Source: a virus (taxonomy: Duplodnaviria > Heunggongvirae > Uroviricota > Caudoviricetes). From it: DNA of 19,349 nucleotides. The notes beneath the pieces are model-generated. The model ran no database searches, was not told the DNA's origin, and saw nothing but the letters and a program-made list of their open reading frames with translations. The stretch is taken from the IMG/VR virus record IMGVR_UViG_2576861133_000001; one strand, written 5' to 3'. Below, piece after piece: positions 384 through 16,505 of the stretch. Positions within the stretch are counted from its first letter, which is position 1. Each line of letters starts with the position of its first letter. Made by a program: the position numbers and the translations under genes.

Positions 384-1316
384 TTACCCCTGCCGCCCGA
401 TAACCACGACCTTTCCGCCCCCGCCTTCATCACGGGTACTGATGTCCTGGGATATACGGCGGGAGCCAACCAGCATTTCCCCGTAAGGCACCGGCATCGG
501 GTTACCCTGGGCAATCATGTTATCCAGGGAGGAAAAGTACGTGTTCTGTTTACCGTTATCCGTGCTTTTGTACTCCGGTGTTTTTGCCTTCGGGGCCAGC
601 ATCTGGGCCACACCGCCCAGTATCATGCTGGCCCCCAGTGAAAACAGCATCGTGGTGGCAGAAAAACCGCCGGCACTCAGGGCTGTACCCCATAACGCCA
701 TCGAGGCACCGGCAGTGAAGAAAGAGCCCACGATGGCTGCCGCCCCCAGCACAATCTGCAGTCCACCCTTTCCGGCCCCGGCCAGTCGCGGCACAATATG
801 GATGACCGTTCCCTCACCCAGCTGTTCGTGAAGACGGGCGTACACCGCCTCCGGTGCCGTGTCATAACCGGCAATACGTATCTGGTACCAGCCTTCGTTC
901 ATCTGACGGCGAAAGCCCGGCACCTGTAACGACAGCGCCCGGATGGCTTCCGCTGCCGTACCGGCAGTGAAGAAAGAGCCCACGATGGCTGCCGCCCCCA
1001 GCACAATCTGCAGTCCACCCTTTCCGGCCCCGGCCAGTCGCGGCACAATATGGATGACCGTTCCCTCACCCAGCTGTTCGTGAAGACGGGCGTACACCGC
1101 CTCCGGTGCCGTGTCATAACCGGCAATACGTATCTGGTACCAGCCTTCGTTCATCTGACGGCGAAAGCCCGGCACCTGTAACGACAGCGCCCGGATGGCT
1201 TCCGCTGCCGTGTTCACATACAGGCTGAGGCGGCGGCCAAATCGTTGTAAATCCCCGTGAAGGCAGATGCGTGCCAGTGGCGGTGACGCCAGACAGAATG
1301 CGTTCGTCGTTGCCAT
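384..1316 (-). CDS. I: Lambda-type tail tip assembly protein I, carrying an internal 84-aa tandem duplication
   Basis: 310-aa ORF with ATG at 1316; recalled lambda gpI-like segments (HGDLQRFGRRLSLYVNTAAEAIRALSLQ, KQNTYFSSLDNM); sits last in the M-L-K-I order; the first 34 codons overlap the K 3' end. Confidence 0.8.
   Translation of the reverse strand: MATTNAFCLASPPLARICLHGDLQRFGRRLSLYVNTAAEAIRALSLQVPGFRRQMNEGWYQIRIAGYDTAPEAVYARLHEQLGEGTVIHIVPRLAGAGKGGLQIVLGAAAIVGSFFTAGTAAEAIRALSLQVPGFRRQMNEGWYQIRIAGYDTAPEAVYARLHEQLGEGTVIHIVPRLAGAGKGGLQIVLGAAAIVGSFFTAGASMALWGTALSAGGFSATTMLFSLGASMILGGVAQMLAPKAKTPEYKSTDNGKQNTYFSSLDNMIAQGNPMPVPYGEMLVGSRRISQDISTRDEGGGGKVVVIGRQG
708..1211. repeat. Perfect direct tandem duplication, 2 x 252 bp, inside gene I
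   Basis: 708-959 is identical to 960-1211 base for base by manual comparison; the protein segment TAAEAIRALSLQ...GSFFTAG occurs twice. Confidence 0.95.
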
Positions 1317-9162: not shown

Positions 9163-9489
9163 TCATAACACCGTCGGACAACGCAAATCGTAAATCAGCA
9201 CGGAAACAGAAAACGGCAGCTCCCCCTGAAGCAGTTCTTCCCGCTCCGCAAGATCCGGATTCCGGTACAGCATCCCGGTCAGTCGCATGGCAGCCCCCTT
9301 CATCCGGGTTAATGCCTCGCCCGGGATCAGTTCACCGTCCTCACGGATCACTTTATCCCGGCTGCCCTGAATGTAGGCCAGCAGCACGGCGGTAGCCTGA
9401 CGAACCTTGTCCATCAGCATGTCATCATCCGCGTCATGGTCGACACGCAGATGTGCCTTGATCTCTTCCAGTGTCAGTAATGCCGTCAT
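9163..9489 (-). CDS. gp6-like head-tail connector protein
   Basis: 108 aa; N-terminal motif LTLEEIKAHLRVDHDADDD is typical of gp6-type head-tail connectors; its ATG overlaps the portal stop. Confidence 0.7.
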   Translation of the reverse strand: MTALLTLEEIKAHLRVDHDADDDMLMDKVRQATAVLLAYIQGSRDKVIREDGELIPGEALTRMKGAAMRLTGMLYRNPDLAEREELLQGELPFSVSVLIYDLRCPTVL

Positions 9490-12071
9490 TTTCCGCCTCC
9501 TGCATCCCGCCCACGTTTTGCAGCCAGGGTCCAGGCTGATGAATGAGCTTCTCCGGGTTTATCTTCGGTCATACTGTTGCAGTGCCACAGCGAGCCCCCC
9601 CACGTCACCGTATCGCCGGGGTGGTAGGTTTCACCGGCTCTGAACACACCGCGGTAGAGCATCACCGGCAGGGAAAATGTTTTTTCCGTACGCTGGCCAC
9701 TGCTCTGCCGGACCACCACAGAGAACAACCGCTCACCCGTCATGCTGACGTCAATATCCGCCACCCCGTCAACCAGGCATTCCCATCCCCGCATCCCGTG
9801 CGTTTTTTCATACGCCCGCCAGAGTCCGCCCTGGTGTGTGGCATACGTGCCCCGGGGAAAGGATTTTTGATCGTCAATGGCGGGGAGTATTTCCAGAGCC
9901 GTGGCATCACGCCCGTCCTGCGGAGCCGGCAGGGCACTCACCGCATCCAGAACCGCCTTCTGCAGAACATCCGGATCGTAGTCACGACCATCACGCGGAA
10001 CATGAATATGGCTTACCGCCTCCTTCACCATCTGTTCAAGCATCGGACGCACATCATCCGGGGTGAGACTTTTACCGTCTGCCGGCTGCGGAATATTTGC
10101 GACCGCATCATTCACCGCCTTCTGCAGAACATCGGGATCATAGTCACGACCGTCGCGCGGAACAGGGATATGGCTTACAGCCTCCTTCACCATCTGTTCA
10201 AGCATCGGACGCACATCATCCGGGGTGAGACTTTTACCGTCCGCCGGCTGCGGAATATTTGCGACCGCATCATTCACCGCCTTCTGCAGTACTTCCGGAT
10301 CGTAGTCACGACCATCACGCGGAACAGGGATATGGCTTACAGCCTCCTTCACCATCTGTTCAAGCATCGGACGCACATCATCCGGGGTGAGACTTTTACC
10401 GTCCGCCGGCTGCGGAATATTTGCGACCGCATCATTCACCGCCTGCTGCAGTACATCCGGATCATAATCACGACCATCACGCGGTACCGGAATGGCCCCC
10501 ACAGCGTCATCCACCATCGCCTGCAGAACCGGACGCACCTCATCCACCGTCACATGCTTCTGTAATACCGCCGACAGGGAAGTCAGTTTCTCTTCAAACG
10601 CTTGTGCCTGCGAGGCCATCTTCCCCTCAAATGTGCGCTGTAAATCCGCCAGCACTGTGGAGAATTCTTCTCCCAGTGCACGAATAATGGACAGTTCCCG
10701 TTCCGTCATTTTCTCAGTATCCCCCCTGAACATCGCTTTCACCGCATCATGCTCTGTTTCACTGATTGCCTTATTACCGTCAGATGCGCCGTCAGGCAGC
10801 TGTGATGAAACTGTTTTCCCGGCAGACGCGAACGGATCCTCACGGGCATCACGACGGGACAGCGCCTCCAGACTGTAGTTCTGCTGCTGAAGATACAGTG
10901 CATCACCGCCGGCCAGGGGCGGCAGGTTCTCCCGTTTACGGGCCTCATTGGGCGTGAGAAGCGTATTTTTCACCGCATCCCCCAGCGTTTTCATGCGCCG
11001 CTCACTGTCCATTCTCAGCAGCGTGGTGACATCAAATTCTGTACTCTCGTTTTCCCCCGTTTCCAGCGCCTCATCCAGTAACAGTTCAATGGACTCAATC
11101 AGCGTCTGCAGGCACTGGGAATAATACTGCTGCTCCAGCGCCTCCACGTTGTCACTGGAAGGCGGTTGTCCCACGCCAATCTTGTAGGCCGGGACACGGA
11201 ACACCGAACAGACAATTTCAGCGGTCATCTTCAGTTGTTCCACCGTCTGCGCATCCACAGGTGAAAACGTCGTGGGGTTGTATTTTGCCCCGTTGCTCAG
11301 AATGGCCGTTTTCCCCGCATTTTCGCCTGTATACCCGCTGTCCCAGTTGCTCTTCAGTTTTTTCGCATTTTCTTCCGTAATACTGCCGGGGATCTCAATC
11401 ACCCCGGACGGCCTGCCGCCATTTCTGAAAAAAGACGTCGAATTTTCCTGAATATGATGCCCCTGCGTGGCCGCCAGCCCGGCGGCATACACCGGCGGCA
11501 ATCCTATAAGCGGATGAAAAAAACAGTTAAACCGGTCGTGGATCACTTCCCGGGCAGGCACCGTCACCGCCTCCGTGATCCCGCAGTTCCGGTCCGGCGT
11601 GATGCGGTAGAACACCTCGCCGTCATCCGCCACCAGAGGTTCAACCCGGCTCCAGTCCAGAATACGCAGTTCTTTGATCTGCCCCCGGGCATTACGGATT
11701 TTCAGCACCACCGTATTGCCATGACGCAGTTTGGCGTTCAGCCACAGTTCAAAAAACTGGATGCGGTTCTGCTGGGCGTTGGGACGACGACAGAGGCGGG
11801 CAATATCCCCCCGGCGCGTTTCCCTGCGTATCCCATGCGCATCCGTCTGCATAAGACGCAGCCGCATTTTGGCGATATCCTGGGATATCAGCGAAATACA
11901 TGCAAACACCGCATGAAAGGAGAGGACGGCTTCAGGATCGGCTTTCACGCCCTGCTGCCAGGCGCCGGAAAAGGGCTCAGCCACCGCCTGAAACAGGCTG
12001 GTCCAGCCCGCCTCTCTTACGTCACGTCCTGATTTCTGGTTTTTTCGGGTTCGCCGTAAAAGGTTCCACAT
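9486..12071 (-). CDS. HK97-family portal protein with a roughly 350-aa C-terminal extension (tandem 54-aa repeats plus a terminal aromatic-rich domain)
   Basis: The N-terminal roughly 450 aa align by eye to HK97 portal (FRNGGRPSG...KTAILSNGAKY...FRVPAYKIG against recalled FGNGSRPSG...KTAVL...FGVPPHLVG); the C-terminal part is an uninterrupted extension of the same ORF. Confidence 0.8.
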   Translation of the reverse strand: MWNLLRRTRKNQKSGRDVREAGWTSLFQAVAEPFSGAWQQGVKADPEAVLSFHAVFACISLISQDIAKMRLRLMQTDAHGIRRETRRGDIARLCRRPNAQQNRIQFFELWLNAKLRHGNTVVLKIRNARGQIKELRILDWSRVEPLVADDGEVFYRITPDRNCGITEAVTVPAREVIHDRFNCFFHPLIGLPPVYAAGLAATQGHHIQENSTSFFRNGGRPSGVIEIPGSITEENAKKLKSNWDSGYTGENAGKTAILSNGAKYNPTTFSPVDAQTVEQLKMTAEIVCSVFRVPAYKIGVGQPPSSDNVEALEQQYYSQCLQTLIESIELLLDEALETGENESTEFDVTTLLRMDSERRMKTLGDAVKNTLLTPNEARKRENLPPLAGGDALYLQQQNYSLEALSRRDAREDPFASAGKTVSSQLPDGASDGNKAISETEHDAVKAMFRGDTEKMTERELSIIRALGEEFSTVLADLQRTFEGKMASQAQAFEEKLTSLSAVLQKHVTVDEVRPVLQAMVDDAVGAIPVPRDGRDYDPDVLQQAVNDAVANIPQPADGKSLTPDDVRPMLEQMVKEAVSHIPVPRDGRDYDPEVLQKAVNDAVANIPQPADGKSLTPDDVRPMLEQMVKEAVSHIPVPRDGRDYDPDVLQKAVNDAVANIPQPADGKSLTPDDVRPMLEQMVKEAVSHIHVPRDGRDYDPDVLQKAVLDAVSALPAPQDGRDATALEILPAIDDQKSFPRGTYATHQGGLWRAYEKTHGMRGWECLVDGVADIDVSMTGERLFSVVVRQSSGQRTEKTFSLPVMLYRGVFRAGETYHPGDTVTWGGSLWHCNSMTEDKPGEAHSSAWTLAAKRGRDAGGGK
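9869..10546. repeat. About 4.2 tandem copies of a 162-bp (54-aa) near-identical coding repeat inside the portal gene
   Basis: Period-162 registration at 9961, 10123, 10285 and 10447; the three central copies differ by only a few substitutions; protein unit DDVRPMLEQMVKEAVSHIPVPRDGRDYDPDVLQKAVNDAVANIPQPADGKSLTP. Confidence 0.85.
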
Positions 12072-12238
12072 TCGCCATGCTCCGCATCACGTTTCTTTTT
12101 CTGACCTGCCGGACGTCGCACCGTGATGTACTCCGCCTTTCCCAGGCGAACCAGCACCTCCGCACACGGCTGTGCCACATCACGGATATCCCCGGCCCGG
12201 GCATCATGCGTGCCCTGCAGATATCGGATCTTTGCCAT
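12017..12238 (-). CDS. Hypothetical 73-aa basic protein in the capsid-portal intergenic gap (doubtful)
   Basis: ATG-initiated ORF in the ORF track; weak ribosome-binding site; overlaps the first 18 portal codons out of frame. Confidence 0.2.
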   Translation of the reverse strand: MAKIRYLQGTHDARAGDIRDVAQPCAEVLVRLGKAEYITVRRPAGQKKKRDAEHGECGTFYGEPEKTRNQDVT

Positions 12239-12282: not shown

Positions 12283-14220
12283 TCAGCCGCCGGACGCACT
12301 GCCGTAGTTCACTCCGGTGATCACCGCCACCGCCGCAGTACGGCGACGACGCCAGTTGATCCAGCGCTCCGCACGGATGGCCACGCTGCCTGTCTGGAAC
12401 ATGGAAACCAGCTCCACCGGGGACGGCGTGGTACTGTCGCCGGTCGGCTCAGACTGCATTTCCAGTGATGCCTCGCGGGACATATCCACTGCCACGCCGC
12501 CGTCATCCGCCAGATAAATATCCGGGGCATTCACCAGCACCAGCTGGTCACCCACGTACTGGGAGACAATCACCGGCAGCCCCTGGAAGGAGCCACCCAG
12601 CAGGGTCATGTCCGGGTATTCCTTCTGACCCAGCGCATTTTTACGCATGGACAGTGCCAGGGCATTGGTGCTGGACATCAGCCAGACCGCACCGGTGGGC
12701 TGCAGGTTTGCTGCCACAAACTGTCCAAACGCAGCCTCTGCATCCGCATCCGGGTTACCGGTTGATGCCGTGCCCTTCACATCATGGGTGATGGACGCCG
12801 GGGAGACATCTGCCACTGCGGCTTTTTTCGGGTCCACAAAGTCTGTATCCAGACGCGCCACCACCGCTTCCGCCAGCGCATTACGGACCAGTGCATCAGC
12901 AGCCGGACTGGAAAAACGGATCAATTCTTCCGTCAGTACCGCAATGGCCGACACCTTCGCATGACTGAAGGTGATGGATTCAAAATCAAACTTCGTCAGG
13001 GGTTTTGCCTTACCCTCACCCACCCAGCCGGCAGCACCGCCGGACACCTGGGCGTGCACACGGATATTGAATGGCACCTGACGAAGTGCAGGGATCCCGC
13101 CCTGACCAAATCGCCCGATAATGGTCTGCGGACGCAGGTAATCAATAAAGTCCTGTGCGTATTCCTGATATTCAGACAGGCTGCCTGCCCACTGCGGATC
13201 CGTGGTGGTCCCCGCGCCCACTGCCGATTTCAGGACATGATGCAGACGACTGTCATCCGGATACTGACGACGGGCCACTTCCAGGGCTTCAGATCGGACG
13301 CCTTTAGCCGCAGCCAGCGATTTGGCAAAGCGGGCGAAGCCAATCCCCTTATCCAGTTTCTGCTCCACACGGATCACCGGCGCAGAAGCCACCGCGGCCA
13401 CATTCCCGTTACCGGCCTGTTTCACCGGCTGCGCCGTGGCGGCCTTACCGGCTTCCAGTTCACGCAGGCGCTTCAGGTGCGCATCCACCTGACGGATTTC
13501 CGCTGCGGTGTTGTCGTAATGCTCTTCCTCCTCCACATCCAGCGTGCGCCCTTCCTCTGCGGCTTTGGTCATGACCTCCTCAAGGGAGGCTGCCAGCGCT
13601 GCACGCTTGTTTTCAAAACTTTTAATCTGTTCGCCAATATTCATTATGGTCTTTTCCTTATGAAAAACGGTTGTTGACTGTGCCGCAGCGCCGGCAGAAG
13701 ATGCGATTTTCACCACCGGTTTCCGGTTGCCGGACGCGGCAGAAAACGGGCGGTCGTAAGATTTAATGGTCCGGATGGTGCATTCCGCATTCGCGGGCAC
13801 GGTGACGGCAGACACCTCCATCAGTTCCCAGCGCAGAAAATGCAGTCCGCCTCCGTCCAGAAAGGTGTATTCATGGGGACGGAAGCCCACGGACAGCCCC
13901 CTGACCAGCCCGGTCTTAATGGCCGCCCAGACCTCATCCAGCCGGGCAGCCAGTTGCGACGGCATATCCGGTACGGGCTTCACCAGTGTTGCCGTGATTT
14001 CCAGCCCTTCGCTGACCCGGCGCACCGTACACTGCCCCACCGGGCGGGAATGGTCATGCTGCCAGAGAAACGGGATCGCACTGCCAAACTCCGCGCCCTC
14101 CGGCTCCAGGATGTCACCATCCCGATCCGGAGAAGGCGTTGACGCAATCCCGGTGATCACCCGTTCATCCTCACTGAAGGATTTCACCGTCAGCAGGGAA
14201 CAGGCCCGTTTAAGAGTCAC
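12283..14220 (-). CDS. Fused HK97-family prohead serine protease (S78-like) and major capsid protein
   Basis: 645 aa; N-terminal protease-like motifs (GIASTP...LWQHD...GLSVGF...EVSAVTVPAN), a central coiled-coil delta-like segment, and a C-terminal HK97-fold capsid-like region; GTG start at 14220 preceded by AGGAGG. Confidence 0.8.
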   Translation of the reverse strand: MTLKRACSLLTVKSFSEDERVITGIASTPSPDRDGDILEPEGAEFGSAIPFLWQHDHSRPVGQCTVRRVSEGLEITATLVKPVPDMPSQLAARLDEVWAAIKTGLVRGLSVGFRPHEYTFLDGGGLHFLRWELMEVSAVTVPANAECTIRTIKSYDRPFSAASGNRKPVVKIASSAGAAAQSTTVFHKEKTIMNIGEQIKSFENKRAALAASLEEVMTKAAEEGRTLDVEEEEHYDNTAAEIRQVDAHLKRLRELEAGKAATAQPVKQAGNGNVAAVASAPVIRVEQKLDKGIGFARFAKSLAAAKGVRSEALEVARRQYPDDSRLHHVLKSAVGAGTTTDPQWAGSLSEYQEYAQDFIDYLRPQTIIGRFGQGGIPALRQVPFNIRVHAQVSGGAAGWVGEGKAKPLTKFDFESITFSHAKVSAIAVLTEELIRFSSPAADALVRNALAEAVVARLDTDFVDPKKAAVADVSPASITHDVKGTASTGNPDADAEAAFGQFVAANLQPTGAVWLMSSTNALALSMRKNALGQKEYPDMTLLGGSFQGLPVIVSQYVGDQLVLVNAPDIYLADDGGVAVDMSREASLEMQSEPTGDSTTPSPVELVSMFQTGSVAIRAERWINWRRRRTAAVAVITGVNYGSASGG

Positions 14221-15945: not shown

Positions 15946-16505
15946 CCGTTGCCCTCATTATCGTTATTCACCACCAGTCGGGGGGGCGGTGGCACCGCAA
16001 AACGGTTAGCCGCTTTTTTCGCGGCATCACCTTTTGCCGATTTTTTCCCGGTATCCCCTTTTTTATGGTGCGTGAACTGCGCCAGACGCCAGGCCGCATC
16101 CAGTGCCAGTTTCGGATCAATGCAGAGGTTTTCCACCAGGATCCGCCCCATGGCTTTCACCGGATCGGGAAGACCATCCTCCATATATTCAATACCAGGA
16201 GACATCACCGCGGACGGTGGCATCTCCAGATTGTTTTCGTCCGGCTGTGGTATTGCAGCCGCCTCACGGCGACGGGGTTTATCCTCCTGCTCTGATTTTT
16301 TCTGCCGGTAAACAGGAACCTCATCCACCTCCACCGTCTCGCATTGTTTACGGGCTATAAACGCAAGCACCTCAGGATCTTTTGCCAGCTGCGAGCCTTT
16401 AACCCTGGCGGTCTTCGCCGAATAACCGGCGGCAATGGCTGACGCTGTTTTGTTTTTCCCGGACATGAGCGCCAGCGCAAATTTTCGTTTTTGCGTTGTC
16501 AGCAC
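15942..16505 (-). CDS. Terminase small subunit (Terminase_2-type HTH N-terminus)
   Basis: 187 aa; GTG start at 16505 preceded by GGAGGAGG; N-terminus LTTQKRKFALALMSGKNKTASAIAAGYSAKTA resembles small-terminase DNA-binding domains. Confidence 0.75.
   Translation of the reverse strand: MLTTQKRKFALALMSGKNKTASAIAAGYSAKTARVKGSQLAKDPEVLAFIARKQCETVEVDEVPVYRQKKSEQEDKPRRREAAAIPQPDENNLEMPPSAVMSPGIEYMEDGLPDPVKAMGRILVENLCIDPKLALDAAWRLAQFTHHKKGDTGKKSAKGDAAKKAANRFAVPPPPRLVVNNDNEGNG

What the first reader, a model, noticed from the sequence alone, without database searches (positions are those of the whole stretch)
9486..12071. Portal protein with a long C-terminal extension: expanding 54-aa repeat array plus an aromatic-rich terminal domain
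The N-terminal roughly 450 aa look like a standard HK97-family portal, but the ORF continues for about 350 more residues. About 4.2 copies of a 54-aa unit follow, with a recurring IP.P.DG(R/K)D...P.D motif, and are encoded by near-identical 162-bp DNA repeats that could expand or contract by recombination. After them comes a roughly 126-aa terminal domain whose motif YHPGDTVTWGGSLWHC...PGE...AW resembles small carbohydrate-binding modules (CBM5/12, ChtBD3-like); that resemblance is my inference only. Portal C-termini normally face the capsid interior, so a repeat-bearing, possibly glycan-binding tail on a portal is unexpected and could be a cleaved or externally displayed module, or a gene fusion.
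Basis: partly seen in the sequence, partly recalled or inferred. Interest (0 to 1): 0.7.

Follow-up and report, generated by a model that had tools for sequence, protein, structure and literature searches.

The report
Portal gene fused to downstream gene
The 861-residue "portal with a long tail" is real, but it is two phage head genes joined by one extra G: an ordinary HK97-type portal and a widespread, uncharacterised stalked protein with chitin-binding-like end domains that seems to work at the portal.

Summary
The ORF (9486-12071, minus strand, 861 aa) is real and identical in hundreds of E. coli genomes. Residues 1-454 are a standard HK97-family portal. Residues 455-861 are a separate gene in nearly all relatives.

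- **The join.** In 43 of 45 species-level loci the order is TerL, protease/capsid, portal, this gene, gp6-like connector. In all 43 the two genes are in different frames and mostly overlap as ATGA. In the window a G6 run (10721-10726) replaces G5. This removes the conserved portal ending (...FRGILRK*) and fuses the frames. The G run is the downstream gene's Shine-Dalgarno-like motif, and its ATG (10707-10709) is kept.
- **The alleles.** Both are common in E. coli: 1338 G6 and 708 G5 copies on identical flanks. RefSeq labels the ancestral G5 form "frameshifted".
- **The module.** It has an N-terminal helix and an acidic helix-loop stalk of 54-aa units (25+29 aa). Copy number varies, and some relatives carry collagen-like repeats instead. 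It ends in a conserved beta domain with two CBM5/12-like units, supported by fold and family-level Pfam matches.
- **Location.** A Moraxella-type portal clade carries one such unit natively at its C-terminus. That points to the capsid-lumen side of the portal.

Ligand and function are unknown.

The parts
9486..12071 (-). Fused ORF, 861 aa, annotated in RefSeq as 'phage portal protein' WP_000267294.1
10710..12071 (-). Portal gene proper (aa 1-454). The Pfam portal domain covers aa 54-382 (10926-11912). An acidic, Ser/Gly-rich linker covers aa about 400-450.
   Evidence: The equivalent stand-alone portals are 446-478 aa in the related loci and about 425-510 aa in the species loci.
10721..10726 (-). 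G6 run. It is G5 in the split form. The extra G shifts the frame, removes the native portal ending ILRK* and fuses the two genes. The run also serves as the Shine-Dalgarno-like motif of the downstream gene.
10707..10709 (-). ATG of M455, the retained start codon of the downstream gene (MTERELSIIRALGEE...). In the G5 form it overlaps the portal stop as ATGA.
9489..10709 (-). Downstream-gene module, 407 aa (stop codon at 9486-9488). It belongs to a family of 200-650-aa stand-alone proteins.
10560..10709 (-). N-terminal long helix of the module (module aa 3-50; pLDDT 77-83 over aa 1-40). It is conserved only within Enterobacterales.
9940..10545 (-). Tandem array of 162-nt (54-aa) units, about 3.7 copies. 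Each unit has a 25-aa and a 29-aa helix-loop sub-unit beginning IPxPxDG. The stalk is acidic (pI 4.5).
9501..9917 (-). Conserved all-beta terminal domain (ORF aa 719-857). AlphaFold2 pLDDT is 87.6 for the domain alone.
9795..9875 (-). First, weaker CBM5/12-like unit (aa 733-759, FPRGTYATHQGGLWRAYEKTHG)
   Evidence: 9.3 bits, i-E 0.008. 51 of 148 family members show two units.
9504..9662 (-). Second CBM5/12-like unit (aa 804-856, YRGVF..YHPGDTVTWGGSLWHC..AWTLAAKRG). It is homologous to the C-terminal tail of Moraxella-type portals.
   Evidence: 43.2 bits, i-E 2e-13
9163..9489 (-). gp6-like head-tail connector gene. Its start overlaps the stop of the fused ORF by 4 nt.
12283..14220 (-). Prohead protease / major capsid protein fusion gene, part of the conserved head module

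Best explanation
**What the ORF is (shown).** It is a fusion of two ancestrally separate head genes.
- Gene 1 is an ordinary HK97-family portal of about 454 aa. Its native end is ...KAMFRGILRK*.
- Gene 2 encodes a 407-aa elongated accessory protein. Its start codon overlaps the portal stop (ATGA), and its Shine-Dalgarno-like motif is a run of G just upstream.
- In this window the run has six G instead of five. The portal frame therefore skips its stop and reads straight into gene 2.
- The Shine-Dalgarno-like motif and the ATG of gene 2 are intact.

**Expected products (inferred).** Besides the 95-kDa fusion, the free 407-aa protein can probably still be made by internal initiation.

**Architecture of gene 2 (shown).** It has an N-terminal helix, then an acidic helix-loop stalk of recombining 54-aa units. 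Relatives carry collagen-like Gly-X-Y repeats in that position, which suggests a trimer. It ends in a highly conserved beta domain made of two CBM5/12-like units.

**Location and mechanism (inferred).** The protein works at the portal vertex on the capsid-lumen side. The N-terminal helix would dock on the portal crown. The stalk would project the beta domain along the capsid axis. The beta domain would bind a ligand that is the same in all hosts, such as packaged DNA or a virion component, rather than a host-specific surface glycan. In the fused allele the module is simply tethered covalently where it would sit anyway. That would explain why the fusion is tolerated and common.
For: **Fusion by +1 G**
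- The alignment with phage Stx2_EH2201 differs by G6 versus G5. It yields a 454-aa portal plus a 407-aa ORF with an ATGA overlap.
- G5 was verified in three loci (L002, L011, L012) and G6 in L001 and L013.
- Deleting one G from the window restores ...FRGILRK*.
- That ending matches the conserved portal C-terminus (K[AST][MIV]xRGxxxK*, with two divergent K-G variants) seen in 17 other Enterobacterales loci.

**Separate gene is the norm**
- In 43 of 45 species-representative loci from alpha-, beta- and gamma-proteobacteria, the portal and this gene are adjacent, in different frames, with overlapping or abutting stop and start. The 4-nt overlap is commonest, at 25 loci. The upstream purine motif is AGAGGA, AGGGGG or GAAGGAG.
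- The same order is seen.
- 140 of the 148 best representative homologues start with Met, and their median length is 304 aa.

**Architecture**
- AlphaFold2 models.
- Pfam Collagen in 30 of 92 and CBM_5_12 in 77 of 92 family members.
- Foldseek lists chitin-binding domains among its best matches, although none reaches E 0.001.

**Lumen-side location**
- 38 of the 120 best clusters of Moraxella-type HK97 portals are 473-521 aa. They are 51-99% identical to Mcat9 and end in a linker plus a single homologous unit, with no separate gene.
- A profile built from those tails hits window aa 804-856 at 43 bits and hits all 148 family members.
- An independent 1237-aa portal fusion exists, P0142.
- Portal C-terminal domains point into the capsid, as in the P22 barrel (abstract of PMC4992974). 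The clip-stem-wing-crown convention is given in PMC7296036.

**Conservation**
- Median identity to the window is 63% for the terminal domain, 51% for the portal, 48.5% for protease-capsid and 49.5% for the connector.

**Tolerance of the fusion**
- On identical 35-nt flanks there are 1338 G6 and 708 G5 copies, sometimes both in one genome.
- The fused form is present in the classified phage 2851.
Against: - No experiment or solved structure places this protein in a virion. No paper on it was found.
- An acidic stalk (pI 4.5), collagen-like repeats and CBM-like tips are what external fibres usually look like.
- The next-best structural matches after the chitin-binding domains are phage tail fibres and tailspikes.
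- Weak PHROG matches are to tail fibre proteins.
- Some relatives, such as the 436-aa Moraxella catarrhalis portal, have neither the tail nor the gene. The module is therefore dispensable, and the fusions could be neutral accidents.
- Prophage abundance does not prove that G6 virions are infectious.
- Docking of the N-terminal helix on the portal crown is pure inference.
Confidence: 0.55

Rival explanations
1. The downstream gene encodes an external head or neck fibre, an adhesin. It would be a trimeric stalk with a glycan-binding CBM5/12 tip, attached near the portal vertex by its N-terminal helix, in the manner of T4 fibritin or RcGTA head fibres. On this reading the fused allele traps twelve copies inside the capsid. 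It survives only because free fibre is still made from the retained internal Shine-Dalgarno-like motif and ATG.
For: - The terminal units have a CBM5/12-like fold.
- Collagen-like or repeat stalks of very variable length occur across the family.
- The stalk is acidic.
- Structural matches include tail fibres and tailspikes, and there are weak PHROG tail-fibre hits.
- The gene lies beside the head-tail connector genes.
- The internal Shine-Dalgarno-like motif and ATG are retained.
- External head fibres that bind capsule polysaccharide are known for RcGTA (PMC7296036).
Against: - The putative binding domain is the most conserved part of the protein. It is more conserved than the portal and capsid proteins across hosts from Rhizobium to E. 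coli. Receptor-binding tips normally show the opposite pattern.
- A whole clade of portals carries the unit at its C-terminus, which is on the lumen side.
- Translational coupling to the portal gene suggests a low copy number similar to the portal's.
Confidence: 0.25
2. The G5/G6 tract is a regulatory switch. It would set the ratio of plain portal, free accessory protein and fusion, either by ribosomal frameshifting at the G run (or at A-AAA-TGA) or by reversible slipped-strand mutation.
For: - Both alleles are abundant on identical flanking sequence, and both can occur in one genome.
- A -1 slip in the G5 form, or a +1 slip in the G6 form, would produce the other allele's product. This follows from reading the sequence.
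Against: - The other 17 Enterobacterales relatives examined mostly have AGAGGA, with G5 in two (L014, L015). None has a slippery heptamer at the junction.
- Five or six G is short for high-frequency phase variation.
- The split arrangement alone is the norm in 43 species-level loci.
Confidence: 0.1
3. The fused allele is simply a defect. On this reading a frameshift has damaged the portal of a decaying prophage and has no functional meaning.
For: - The change removes a conserved portal C-terminus.
- Prophages persist without making virions.
- The large G6 count is inflated by clonal lineages such as ST131 and O157.
Against: - The whole 407-aa downstream frame remains intact, and so do all neighbouring head and tail genes.
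- G6 occurs on several sequence backgrounds, at up to 6 copies per genome.
- G6 is present in phage 2851, an ICTV-classified Stx2c phage. From my memory of Strauch et al. 2008, which I did not check here, that phage lysogenises laboratory strains.
- C-terminal additions to portals are tolerated elsewhere, as in the P22 barrel and the Moraxella-type tails.
Confidence: 0.15
4. One reading: a native single-gene portal that evolved a long C-terminal extension.
For: - There is a single uninterrupted ORF, annotated as one protein in RefSeq, and PHROG 2271 covers its full length.
- Natural portal-CBM fusions do exist in another clade.
Against: - A one-base difference from the split form accounts for the ORF.
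- The native portal stop and the last residues are conserved in relatives.
- The start codon and Shine-Dalgarno-like motif of the second gene are conserved.
- The two genes are adjacent and in separate frames in 43 of 45 species-level loci.
Confidence: 0.03

Closest known systems
HK97-family portal proteins (Pfam PF04860, TIGR01537; solved portal chains 8cez and 9lbn)
   Same: Residues 1-454 match over the whole portal domain and sit in an HK97-like head module with an S78 protease, an HK97-fold capsid protein and a gp6-like connector.
   Different: The ORF runs on for 407 aa because of a frameshift fusion. The gene order is terminase, protease-capsid, portal, rather than terminase, portal, protease, capsid.
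P22 portal C-terminal barrel
   Same: It is a C-terminal portal extension that projects into the capsid lumen (abstract of PMC4992974).
   Different: The P22 barrel is a native alpha-helical barrel within a single gene. Here the addition is a separate gene product or a frameshift fusion, with helix-loop repeats and a beta-domain tip. No sequence similarity was found.
SPP1 gp7 / Mu gpF (MuF) minor head proteins
   Same: The gene lies immediately downstream of the portal gene, and the protein is thought to be portal-associated inside the capsid and sometimes fused to portals. These points come from my own knowledge and were not tested here.
   Different: There is no Pfam Phage_Mu_F match and no sequence or fold similarity. 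The resemblance is positional only.
CBM5/12 (ChtBD3) chitin- and cellulose-binding modules of chitinases (Serratia ChiB, Streptomyces griseus ChiC, Pyrococcus ChBD 2rts, Erwinia EGZ)
   Different: The window sequence is below Pfam's gathering score. In the alignment to 2rts, that domain's 'YW' pair is replaced by polar residues. The context is a phage head module, not a secreted enzyme. No binding has been tested.
External phage fibres with collagen-like or coiled stalks (SPP1 gp12, RcGTA head fibre, T4 fibritin)
   Same: They are elongated and probably trimeric, have variable-length stalks and are encoded among head or neck genes (PMC7296036; SPP1 gp12 and T4 fibritin from my own knowledge).
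   Different: Those proteins are outside the capsid. Here the recurrent fusions to the portal C-terminus and the unusually conserved tip argue for the inside.
Lambda C/Nu3-type nested in-frame genes
   Same: In the fused allele a complete gene, with its own ribosome-binding site and ATG, lies in frame within the 3' part of a longer head gene. The lambda comparison is from my own knowledge.
   Different: In lambda the nesting is the native design. Here it is a secondary result of a 1-nt insertion, and internal initiation has not been shown.

Membership tests
HK97-family portal (PF04860 / TIGR01537) | Profile match above the curated cut-off | tested here: met
   PF04860 scores 272.6 bits against 39.1. 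TIGR01537 scores 349.4 bits against 112.
HK97-family portal (PF04860 / TIGR01537) | Sequence homology to solved portal structures over the whole portal domain | tested here: met
   9lbn at 1e-28 and 8cez at 4e-20, covering aa about 43-420.
HK97-family portal (PF04860 / TIGR01537) | Single-domain protein of about 400-480 aa that ends after the crown | tested here: not met
   The ORF is 861 aa. The portal part alone (454 aa in the G5 form) does meet this feature.
CBM5/12 (ChtBD3) carbohydrate-binding module | Pfam CBM_5_12 match above the gathering score | tested here: not met
   The window scores 19.1-21.1 bits against 26.2. However, 77 of 92 family members match at E <= 0.01, best 2.6e-8.
CBM5/12 (ChtBD3) carbohydrate-binding module | Small antiparallel beta fold superposable on solved chitin-binding domains | tested here: met
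CBM5/12 (ChtBD3) carbohydrate-binding module | Conserved surface aromatic residues that contact the polysaccharide | tested here: inconclusive
   W and Y are conserved in the GD.V.W.G.LW motif. The 'YW' pair of 2rts aligns to polar residues. No structure-based mapping was possible.
CBM5/12 (ChtBD3) carbohydrate-binding module | Binding to chitin, cellulose or another glycan | not testable with these tools
   This needs pull-down or glycan-array experiments with the isolated domain.
Bacterial/phage collagen-like proteins (PF01391) | Runs of Gly-X-Y triplets | tested here: not met
   There is no Collagen hit and no Gly-X-Y run in the window protein. 30 of 92 relatives have them, with runs of up to 49 triplets.
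SPP1 gp7 / MuF minor head protein | Pfam Phage_Mu_F domain | tested here: not met
   No such hit appears for the window or for the 92 relatives.
SPP1 gp7 / MuF minor head protein | Gene directly downstream of the portal gene, with occasional fusion to the portal | tested here: met
   This is a positional analogy only.
Programmed ribosomal frameshift site | Slippery sequence conserved among relatives at the junction | tested here: not met
   The other 17 Enterobacterales loci examined mostly carry AGAGGA and lack a slippery heptamer.
Phase-variable homopolymeric tract | Length polymorphism of the tract on otherwise identical sequence | tested here: met
   G6 occurs in 752 genomes (1338 copies) and G5 in 367 genomes (708 copies) on identical 35-nt contexts. 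L011 compared with the window shows the same.
Phase-variable homopolymeric tract | High-frequency reversible switching within a population | not testable with these tools
   This needs deep sequencing of single-clone cultures or lysates. A tract of only 5-6 G makes a high switching rate unlikely.

The most novel reading that the evidence does not exclude
A large, undescribed family defines a new kind of internal, portal-anchored head component. Representative searches found 5,491 clusters at 50% identity with E <= 0.001, all encoded in one conserved head module across Proteobacteria. The component would be a stalked rod, sometimes collagen-like and probably trimeric, that carries CBM5/12-like domains into the capsid lumen. 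It would be attached to the portal crown either non-covalently or covalently. The covalent forms are the Moraxella-type portals and the E. coli G6 frameshift fusion. The domain would bind a universal ligand such as the packaged DNA or its end. That would influence genome organisation, retention or ejection.
Probability: 0.35. Interest if true: 0.75.

Novelty: new variant of a known kind. Interest (0 to 1): 0.6.

Why it matters
- **Annotation.** RefSeq treats the 861-aa fusion as the reference 'phage portal protein' and flags the ancestral two-gene form as a frameshifted pseudogene. The second gene is misnamed 'portal protein' or 'gp6-like head-tail connector' in many genomes. This affects Stx-converting phages and the prophages of pandemic E. 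coli lineages.
- **Biology.** The work exposes a very widespread head-module protein with no solved structure. I also found no paper describing it. It has an unusual mix of features: a recombining helix-loop or collagen-like stalk and chitin-binding-like domains. Genetic evidence places it at the inner face of the portal. If that location is confirmed, it would add a new type of internal portal accessory to the P22 barrel, the T7 core and the MuF/gp7 proteins.
- **A natural experiment.** Paired G5 and G6 phages, and the Moraxella-type portals, allow a direct test of how tethering cargo to the portal affects packaging and ejection.

Tried and rejected
- **PDB sequence searches.** Searches with the extension and with a family profile found no homologue, only local CBM-like matches and designed helical repeats.
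- **NCBIfam.** It has no model for the extension.
- **Names given by source databases.** They are uninformative carry-over from neighbouring genes.
- **PF28083.** This precomputed Pfam accession is attached to many homologues. It is absent from the local Pfam copy and from the literature library, so I could not identify it.
- **Literature.** Searches for collagen-like or CBM-bearing portal-associated proteins, head fibres, Sakai prophage portal frameshifts and phage 2851 virion proteins found nothing about this protein.
- **Programmed frameshifting.** I considered it and set it aside, because relatives lack any slippery site.
- **Complementary distribution.** I tested whether portals without the tail always have the separate gene. 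They do not: Moraxella catarrhalis short portals have neither.
- **Failed runs.** A first hmmsearch returned an empty table because of a pipe problem and was repeated. One script failed on a missing start codon and was fixed.


Full report
**1.

The window is a lambdoid E. coli prophage with its genes on the minus strand: lysis genes, HNH endonuclease, TerS, TerL, a protease/major-capsid fusion, a small ORF, the ORF in question, a gp6-like connector, head closure, and tail genes. ORF 9486..12071 encodes 861 aa.

Residues 1 to about 450 are an HK97-family portal:
- PF04860 covers aa 54-382 with E = 6e-81.
- TIGR01537 scores 349 bits.
- Solved portals 9lbn and 8cez match at 1e-28 and 4e-20.

The repeat is real:
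- Tandem Repeats Finder reports period 162 nt, 3.3 copies and 95% matches.
- The repeat finder extends the array to 9940-10545, about 3.7 units.
- Eight IPxPxDG motifs show that the 54-aa unit is made of a 25-aa and a 29-aa sub-unit.

The sequence is not an error. It is 100% identical in many complete E. coli genomes and was found in 1246 of 5426 genomes overall. RefSeq annotates it as a single 861-aa 'phage portal protein'.

**2. The ORF is two genes joined by one extra G**

In Stx2a phage Stx2_EH2201 the same region is annotated as two CDSs of 454 and 407 aa that overlap by 4 nt. Alignment shows a single relevant difference. The window reads TTCAGGGGGGATACTGAGAAAATGACGG, and the phage has one G fewer.

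With G5 the portal ends ...AMFRGILRK*. The second ORF starts at the overlapping ATG as MTERELSIIRALGEEF.... The run lies at window 10721-10726 and the ATG at 10707-10709. Pattern checks confirmed G5 in L002, L011 and L012, and G6 in L001 and L013.

Three results show that the split form is ancestral:
- **Separate genes elsewhere.** In 45 species-representative loci from gamma-, beta- and alpha-proteobacteria the order is TerL, protease/capsid, portal, this gene, gp6-like connector, head closure. In 43 of these loci the portal and this gene are adjacent and in different frames. In one (L025) the portal lies about 3 kb upstream, and one (L058) keeps only a remnant. The same order was seen.
- **Coupled starts.** The junctions are typical of translational coupling. 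The overlap is 4 nt in 25 loci, 1 nt in 6 and 14 nt in 6. A purine-rich Shine-Dalgarno-like motif (AGAGGA, AGGGGG, GAAGGAG, AAAGGG) lies about 11-14 nt upstream. The E. coli G run is therefore the ribosome-binding motif of gene 2.
- **A conserved portal ending.** The portal ends K[AST][MIV]xRGxxxK* in most of 17 other Enterobacterales loci (two diverge, with K before the G). Removing one G from the window restores ...KAMFRGILRK*.

The window allele is therefore a +1 frameshift inside the last five codons of the portal gene.

Both alleles are common. On identical 35-nt contexts, G6 occurs in 752 genomes (1338 copies) and G5 in 367 genomes (708 copies). Some genomes carry both. NCBI's annotation pipeline marks the G5 form as a 'frameshifted' pseudogene, which is the reverse of the evolutionary direction. 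Among sequenced Stx phages most are split. Some, including phage 2851 (Pankowvirus pv2851), are fused.

**3. What gene 2 encodes**

A full HMMER scan of 1.84 billion representative proteins with the last 143 aa found 5491 clusters at E <= 0.001, and 342 at E <= 1e-30. Of the best 148, 140 start with Met, and the median length is 304 aa. The conserved domain is always at the C-terminal end, in some members followed by a short tail. Only two of them contain a portal: a fragment of this E. coli fusion and P0142, an independent 1237-aa fusion with about 25 repeats.

The family architecture is:
- **An N-terminal amphipathic helix.**
- **A variable stalk.** It is built either from the same two-part P.P.DGK..(D/T)P(E/D)..V....A unit, which also occurs in Variovorax and Pseudomonas, or from collagen-like Gly-X-Y runs of up to 49 triplets. 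Pfam Collagen matches 30 of 92 members. The collagen-like repeats suggest a trimer.
- **A conserved beta domain of about 140 aa.**

Within E. coli the stalk length varies. Modules of 245 aa (three units fewer), 407 aa and about 461 aa (inferred from a 915-aa fused portal) occur, along with irregular 890- and 895-aa fusions.

AlphaFold2 gives a confident N-terminal helix (module aa 3-50). It gives eight further short helices separated by low-confidence loops, and an all-beta terminal domain with pLDDT 83-94. Modelled alone, the terminal domain reaches pLDDT 87.6.

**4. The chitin-binding resemblance**

The window scores 19-21 bits on Pfam CBM_5_12, below the 26.2 cut-off. However, 77 of 92 relatives match at E <= 0.01, the best at 2.6e-8.

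The domain contains two such units. Unit 2 (aa 804-856) is strong and unit 1 (aa 733-759) is weak. So the fold assignment is supported, while carbohydrate binding is untested. In the alignment to 2rts, that domain's 'YW' pair falls on polar residues.

**5. Where it probably acts**

- **Natural portal fusions.** Moraxella phage Mcat9 has a 479-aa portal. Its C-terminus is a linker followed by a single unit (...YKGVFSSDVAYQVGDFVTRNGSLWHC...NWTLAVKKG), and the connector gene follows directly. This is not a one-off. Among the 120 best relatives of that portal, 38 clusters of 473-521 aa, 51-99% identical, end the same way. Two of them checked in context show portal followed by connector, with no separate gene.
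- **Homology to the window.** A profile of those 38 tails hits window aa 804-856 at 43.2 bits (i-E 2e-13) and hits all 148 family members.
- **Portal topology.** Portal C-termini belong to the crown and point into the capsid. The clip-stem-wing-crown convention is given in PMC7296036, and the P22 barrel abstract is PMC4992974. The rest is established knowledge of portal structures. A domain natively attached there is on the lumen side.
- **Conservation.** Median identity to the window is 63% for the terminal domain. It is 51% for the portal, 48.5% for protease-capsid and 49.5% for the connector in the same loci. The N-terminal helix is recognisable only within Enterobacterales. A host-receptor tip would be expected to be the most variable part, not the most conserved.
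- **Expression.** Translational coupling to the portal gene suggests a similar, low copy number.

Several points argue the other way. The stalk is acidic (pI 4.5). Collagen-like stalks and CBM-like tips are typical of external fibres. The next-best structural neighbours are tail fibres. Some relatives lack the module entirely, so it is accessory.

On balance I favour a portal-crown-associated internal accessory protein, at moderate confidence. The docking of the N-terminal helix and the nature of the ligand are inferred, not shown.

**6. Consequences for this window**

Translation from the portal start should give a 95-kDa portal-module fusion. If it assembles, twelve modules are tethered inside the head. 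The intact Shine-Dalgarno-like motif and ATG make internal initiation of the free 407-aa protein plausible.

A plain 454-aa portal would require frameshifting or proteolysis, and neither is supported by conserved signals. The abundance of G6 copies, their presence on several sequence backgrounds and their presence in phage 2851 suggest that the fusion is tolerated. That is easiest to understand if the module normally sits at the crown.

**7. Comparison and novelty**

- The portal part is a plain member of the HK97 portal family.
- The terminal units are CBM5/12-like by fold, but this sequence is not a curated member of that family.
- Functionally, the nearest analogues are the P22 portal barrel and the SPP1 gp7/MuF proteins. 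The latter are encoded next to the portal gene and sometimes fused to it. There is no homology to either.
- No solved structure exists, and I found no paper about this protein.
- The ORF itself is already in the databases. Its composite origin, the family behind it and the likely lumen-side location appear to be undescribed.
- I rate it a new variant of a known kind, namely portal-associated accessory or extension, with interest 0.6.

Noticed in passing
window 708-1211 and 2204-2706: There are two perfect (100%) tandem duplications, each exactly 252 bp and in frame. One lies in the tail assembly (gpI-like) gene and one in the minor tail protein L gene. Neither junction is contiguous in any of the 5426 complete E. 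coli genomes. In the records listed, the junction queries align as two pieces spanning the single-copy unit, and the otherwise identical prophage L001 lacks both duplications. They may be an assembly artefact, a strain-specific event or an insertion made in preparing the window.
   Followed up: partly
L011 320-2904, L012 320-2904 (E. coli RefSeq genomes): NCBI's annotation pipeline marks the G5 (two-gene) form as a 'frameshifted' pseudogene of the 861-aa portal. Comparative evidence shows that G5 is the ancestral, intact arrangement.
   Followed up: yes
L060 2726-4165 (Moraxella phage Mcat9) and proteins P0387-P0407, P0409, P0410, P0412, P0422, P0493, P0495-P0506: A clade of HK97-type portals of 473-521 aa natively ends in a low-complexity linker plus a single CBM5/12-like unit. 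Related 421-451-aa portals lack it, and their loci have no separate gene either.
   Followed up: yes
proteins P0274-P0386 (precomputed Pfam column): Many homologues carry a precomputed hit to Pfam accession PF28083. It is not in the local Pfam copy and is not mentioned in the paper library, so its identity is unknown. It may already describe part of this module.
   Followed up: partly
window 12283-14220 (-): The prohead protease (S78) and the HK97-fold major capsid protein are fused in one 645-aa ORF. The portal gene follows the capsid gene instead of preceding it. This order is conserved across the related loci, although a few have protease and capsid split.
   Followed up: partly
window 12017-12238 (-): A small 73-aa ORF lies between the capsid and portal genes and overlaps the portal start. 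It matches PHROG 829 (unknown function), and an ORF of similar size sits at the same position in relatives.
   Followed up: no
window 16009-16062: A 27-bp tandem repeat (2 copies, 85% matches) lies inside the terminase small-subunit gene.
   Followed up: no
protein P0142 (1237 aa, source not identified): This is an independent portal fusion. Its stalk has about 25 copies of a different repeat of about 27 aa (LPxPEPLPDIxxMVxxAVxxI). The former start Met is still visible at the junction.
   Followed up: partly
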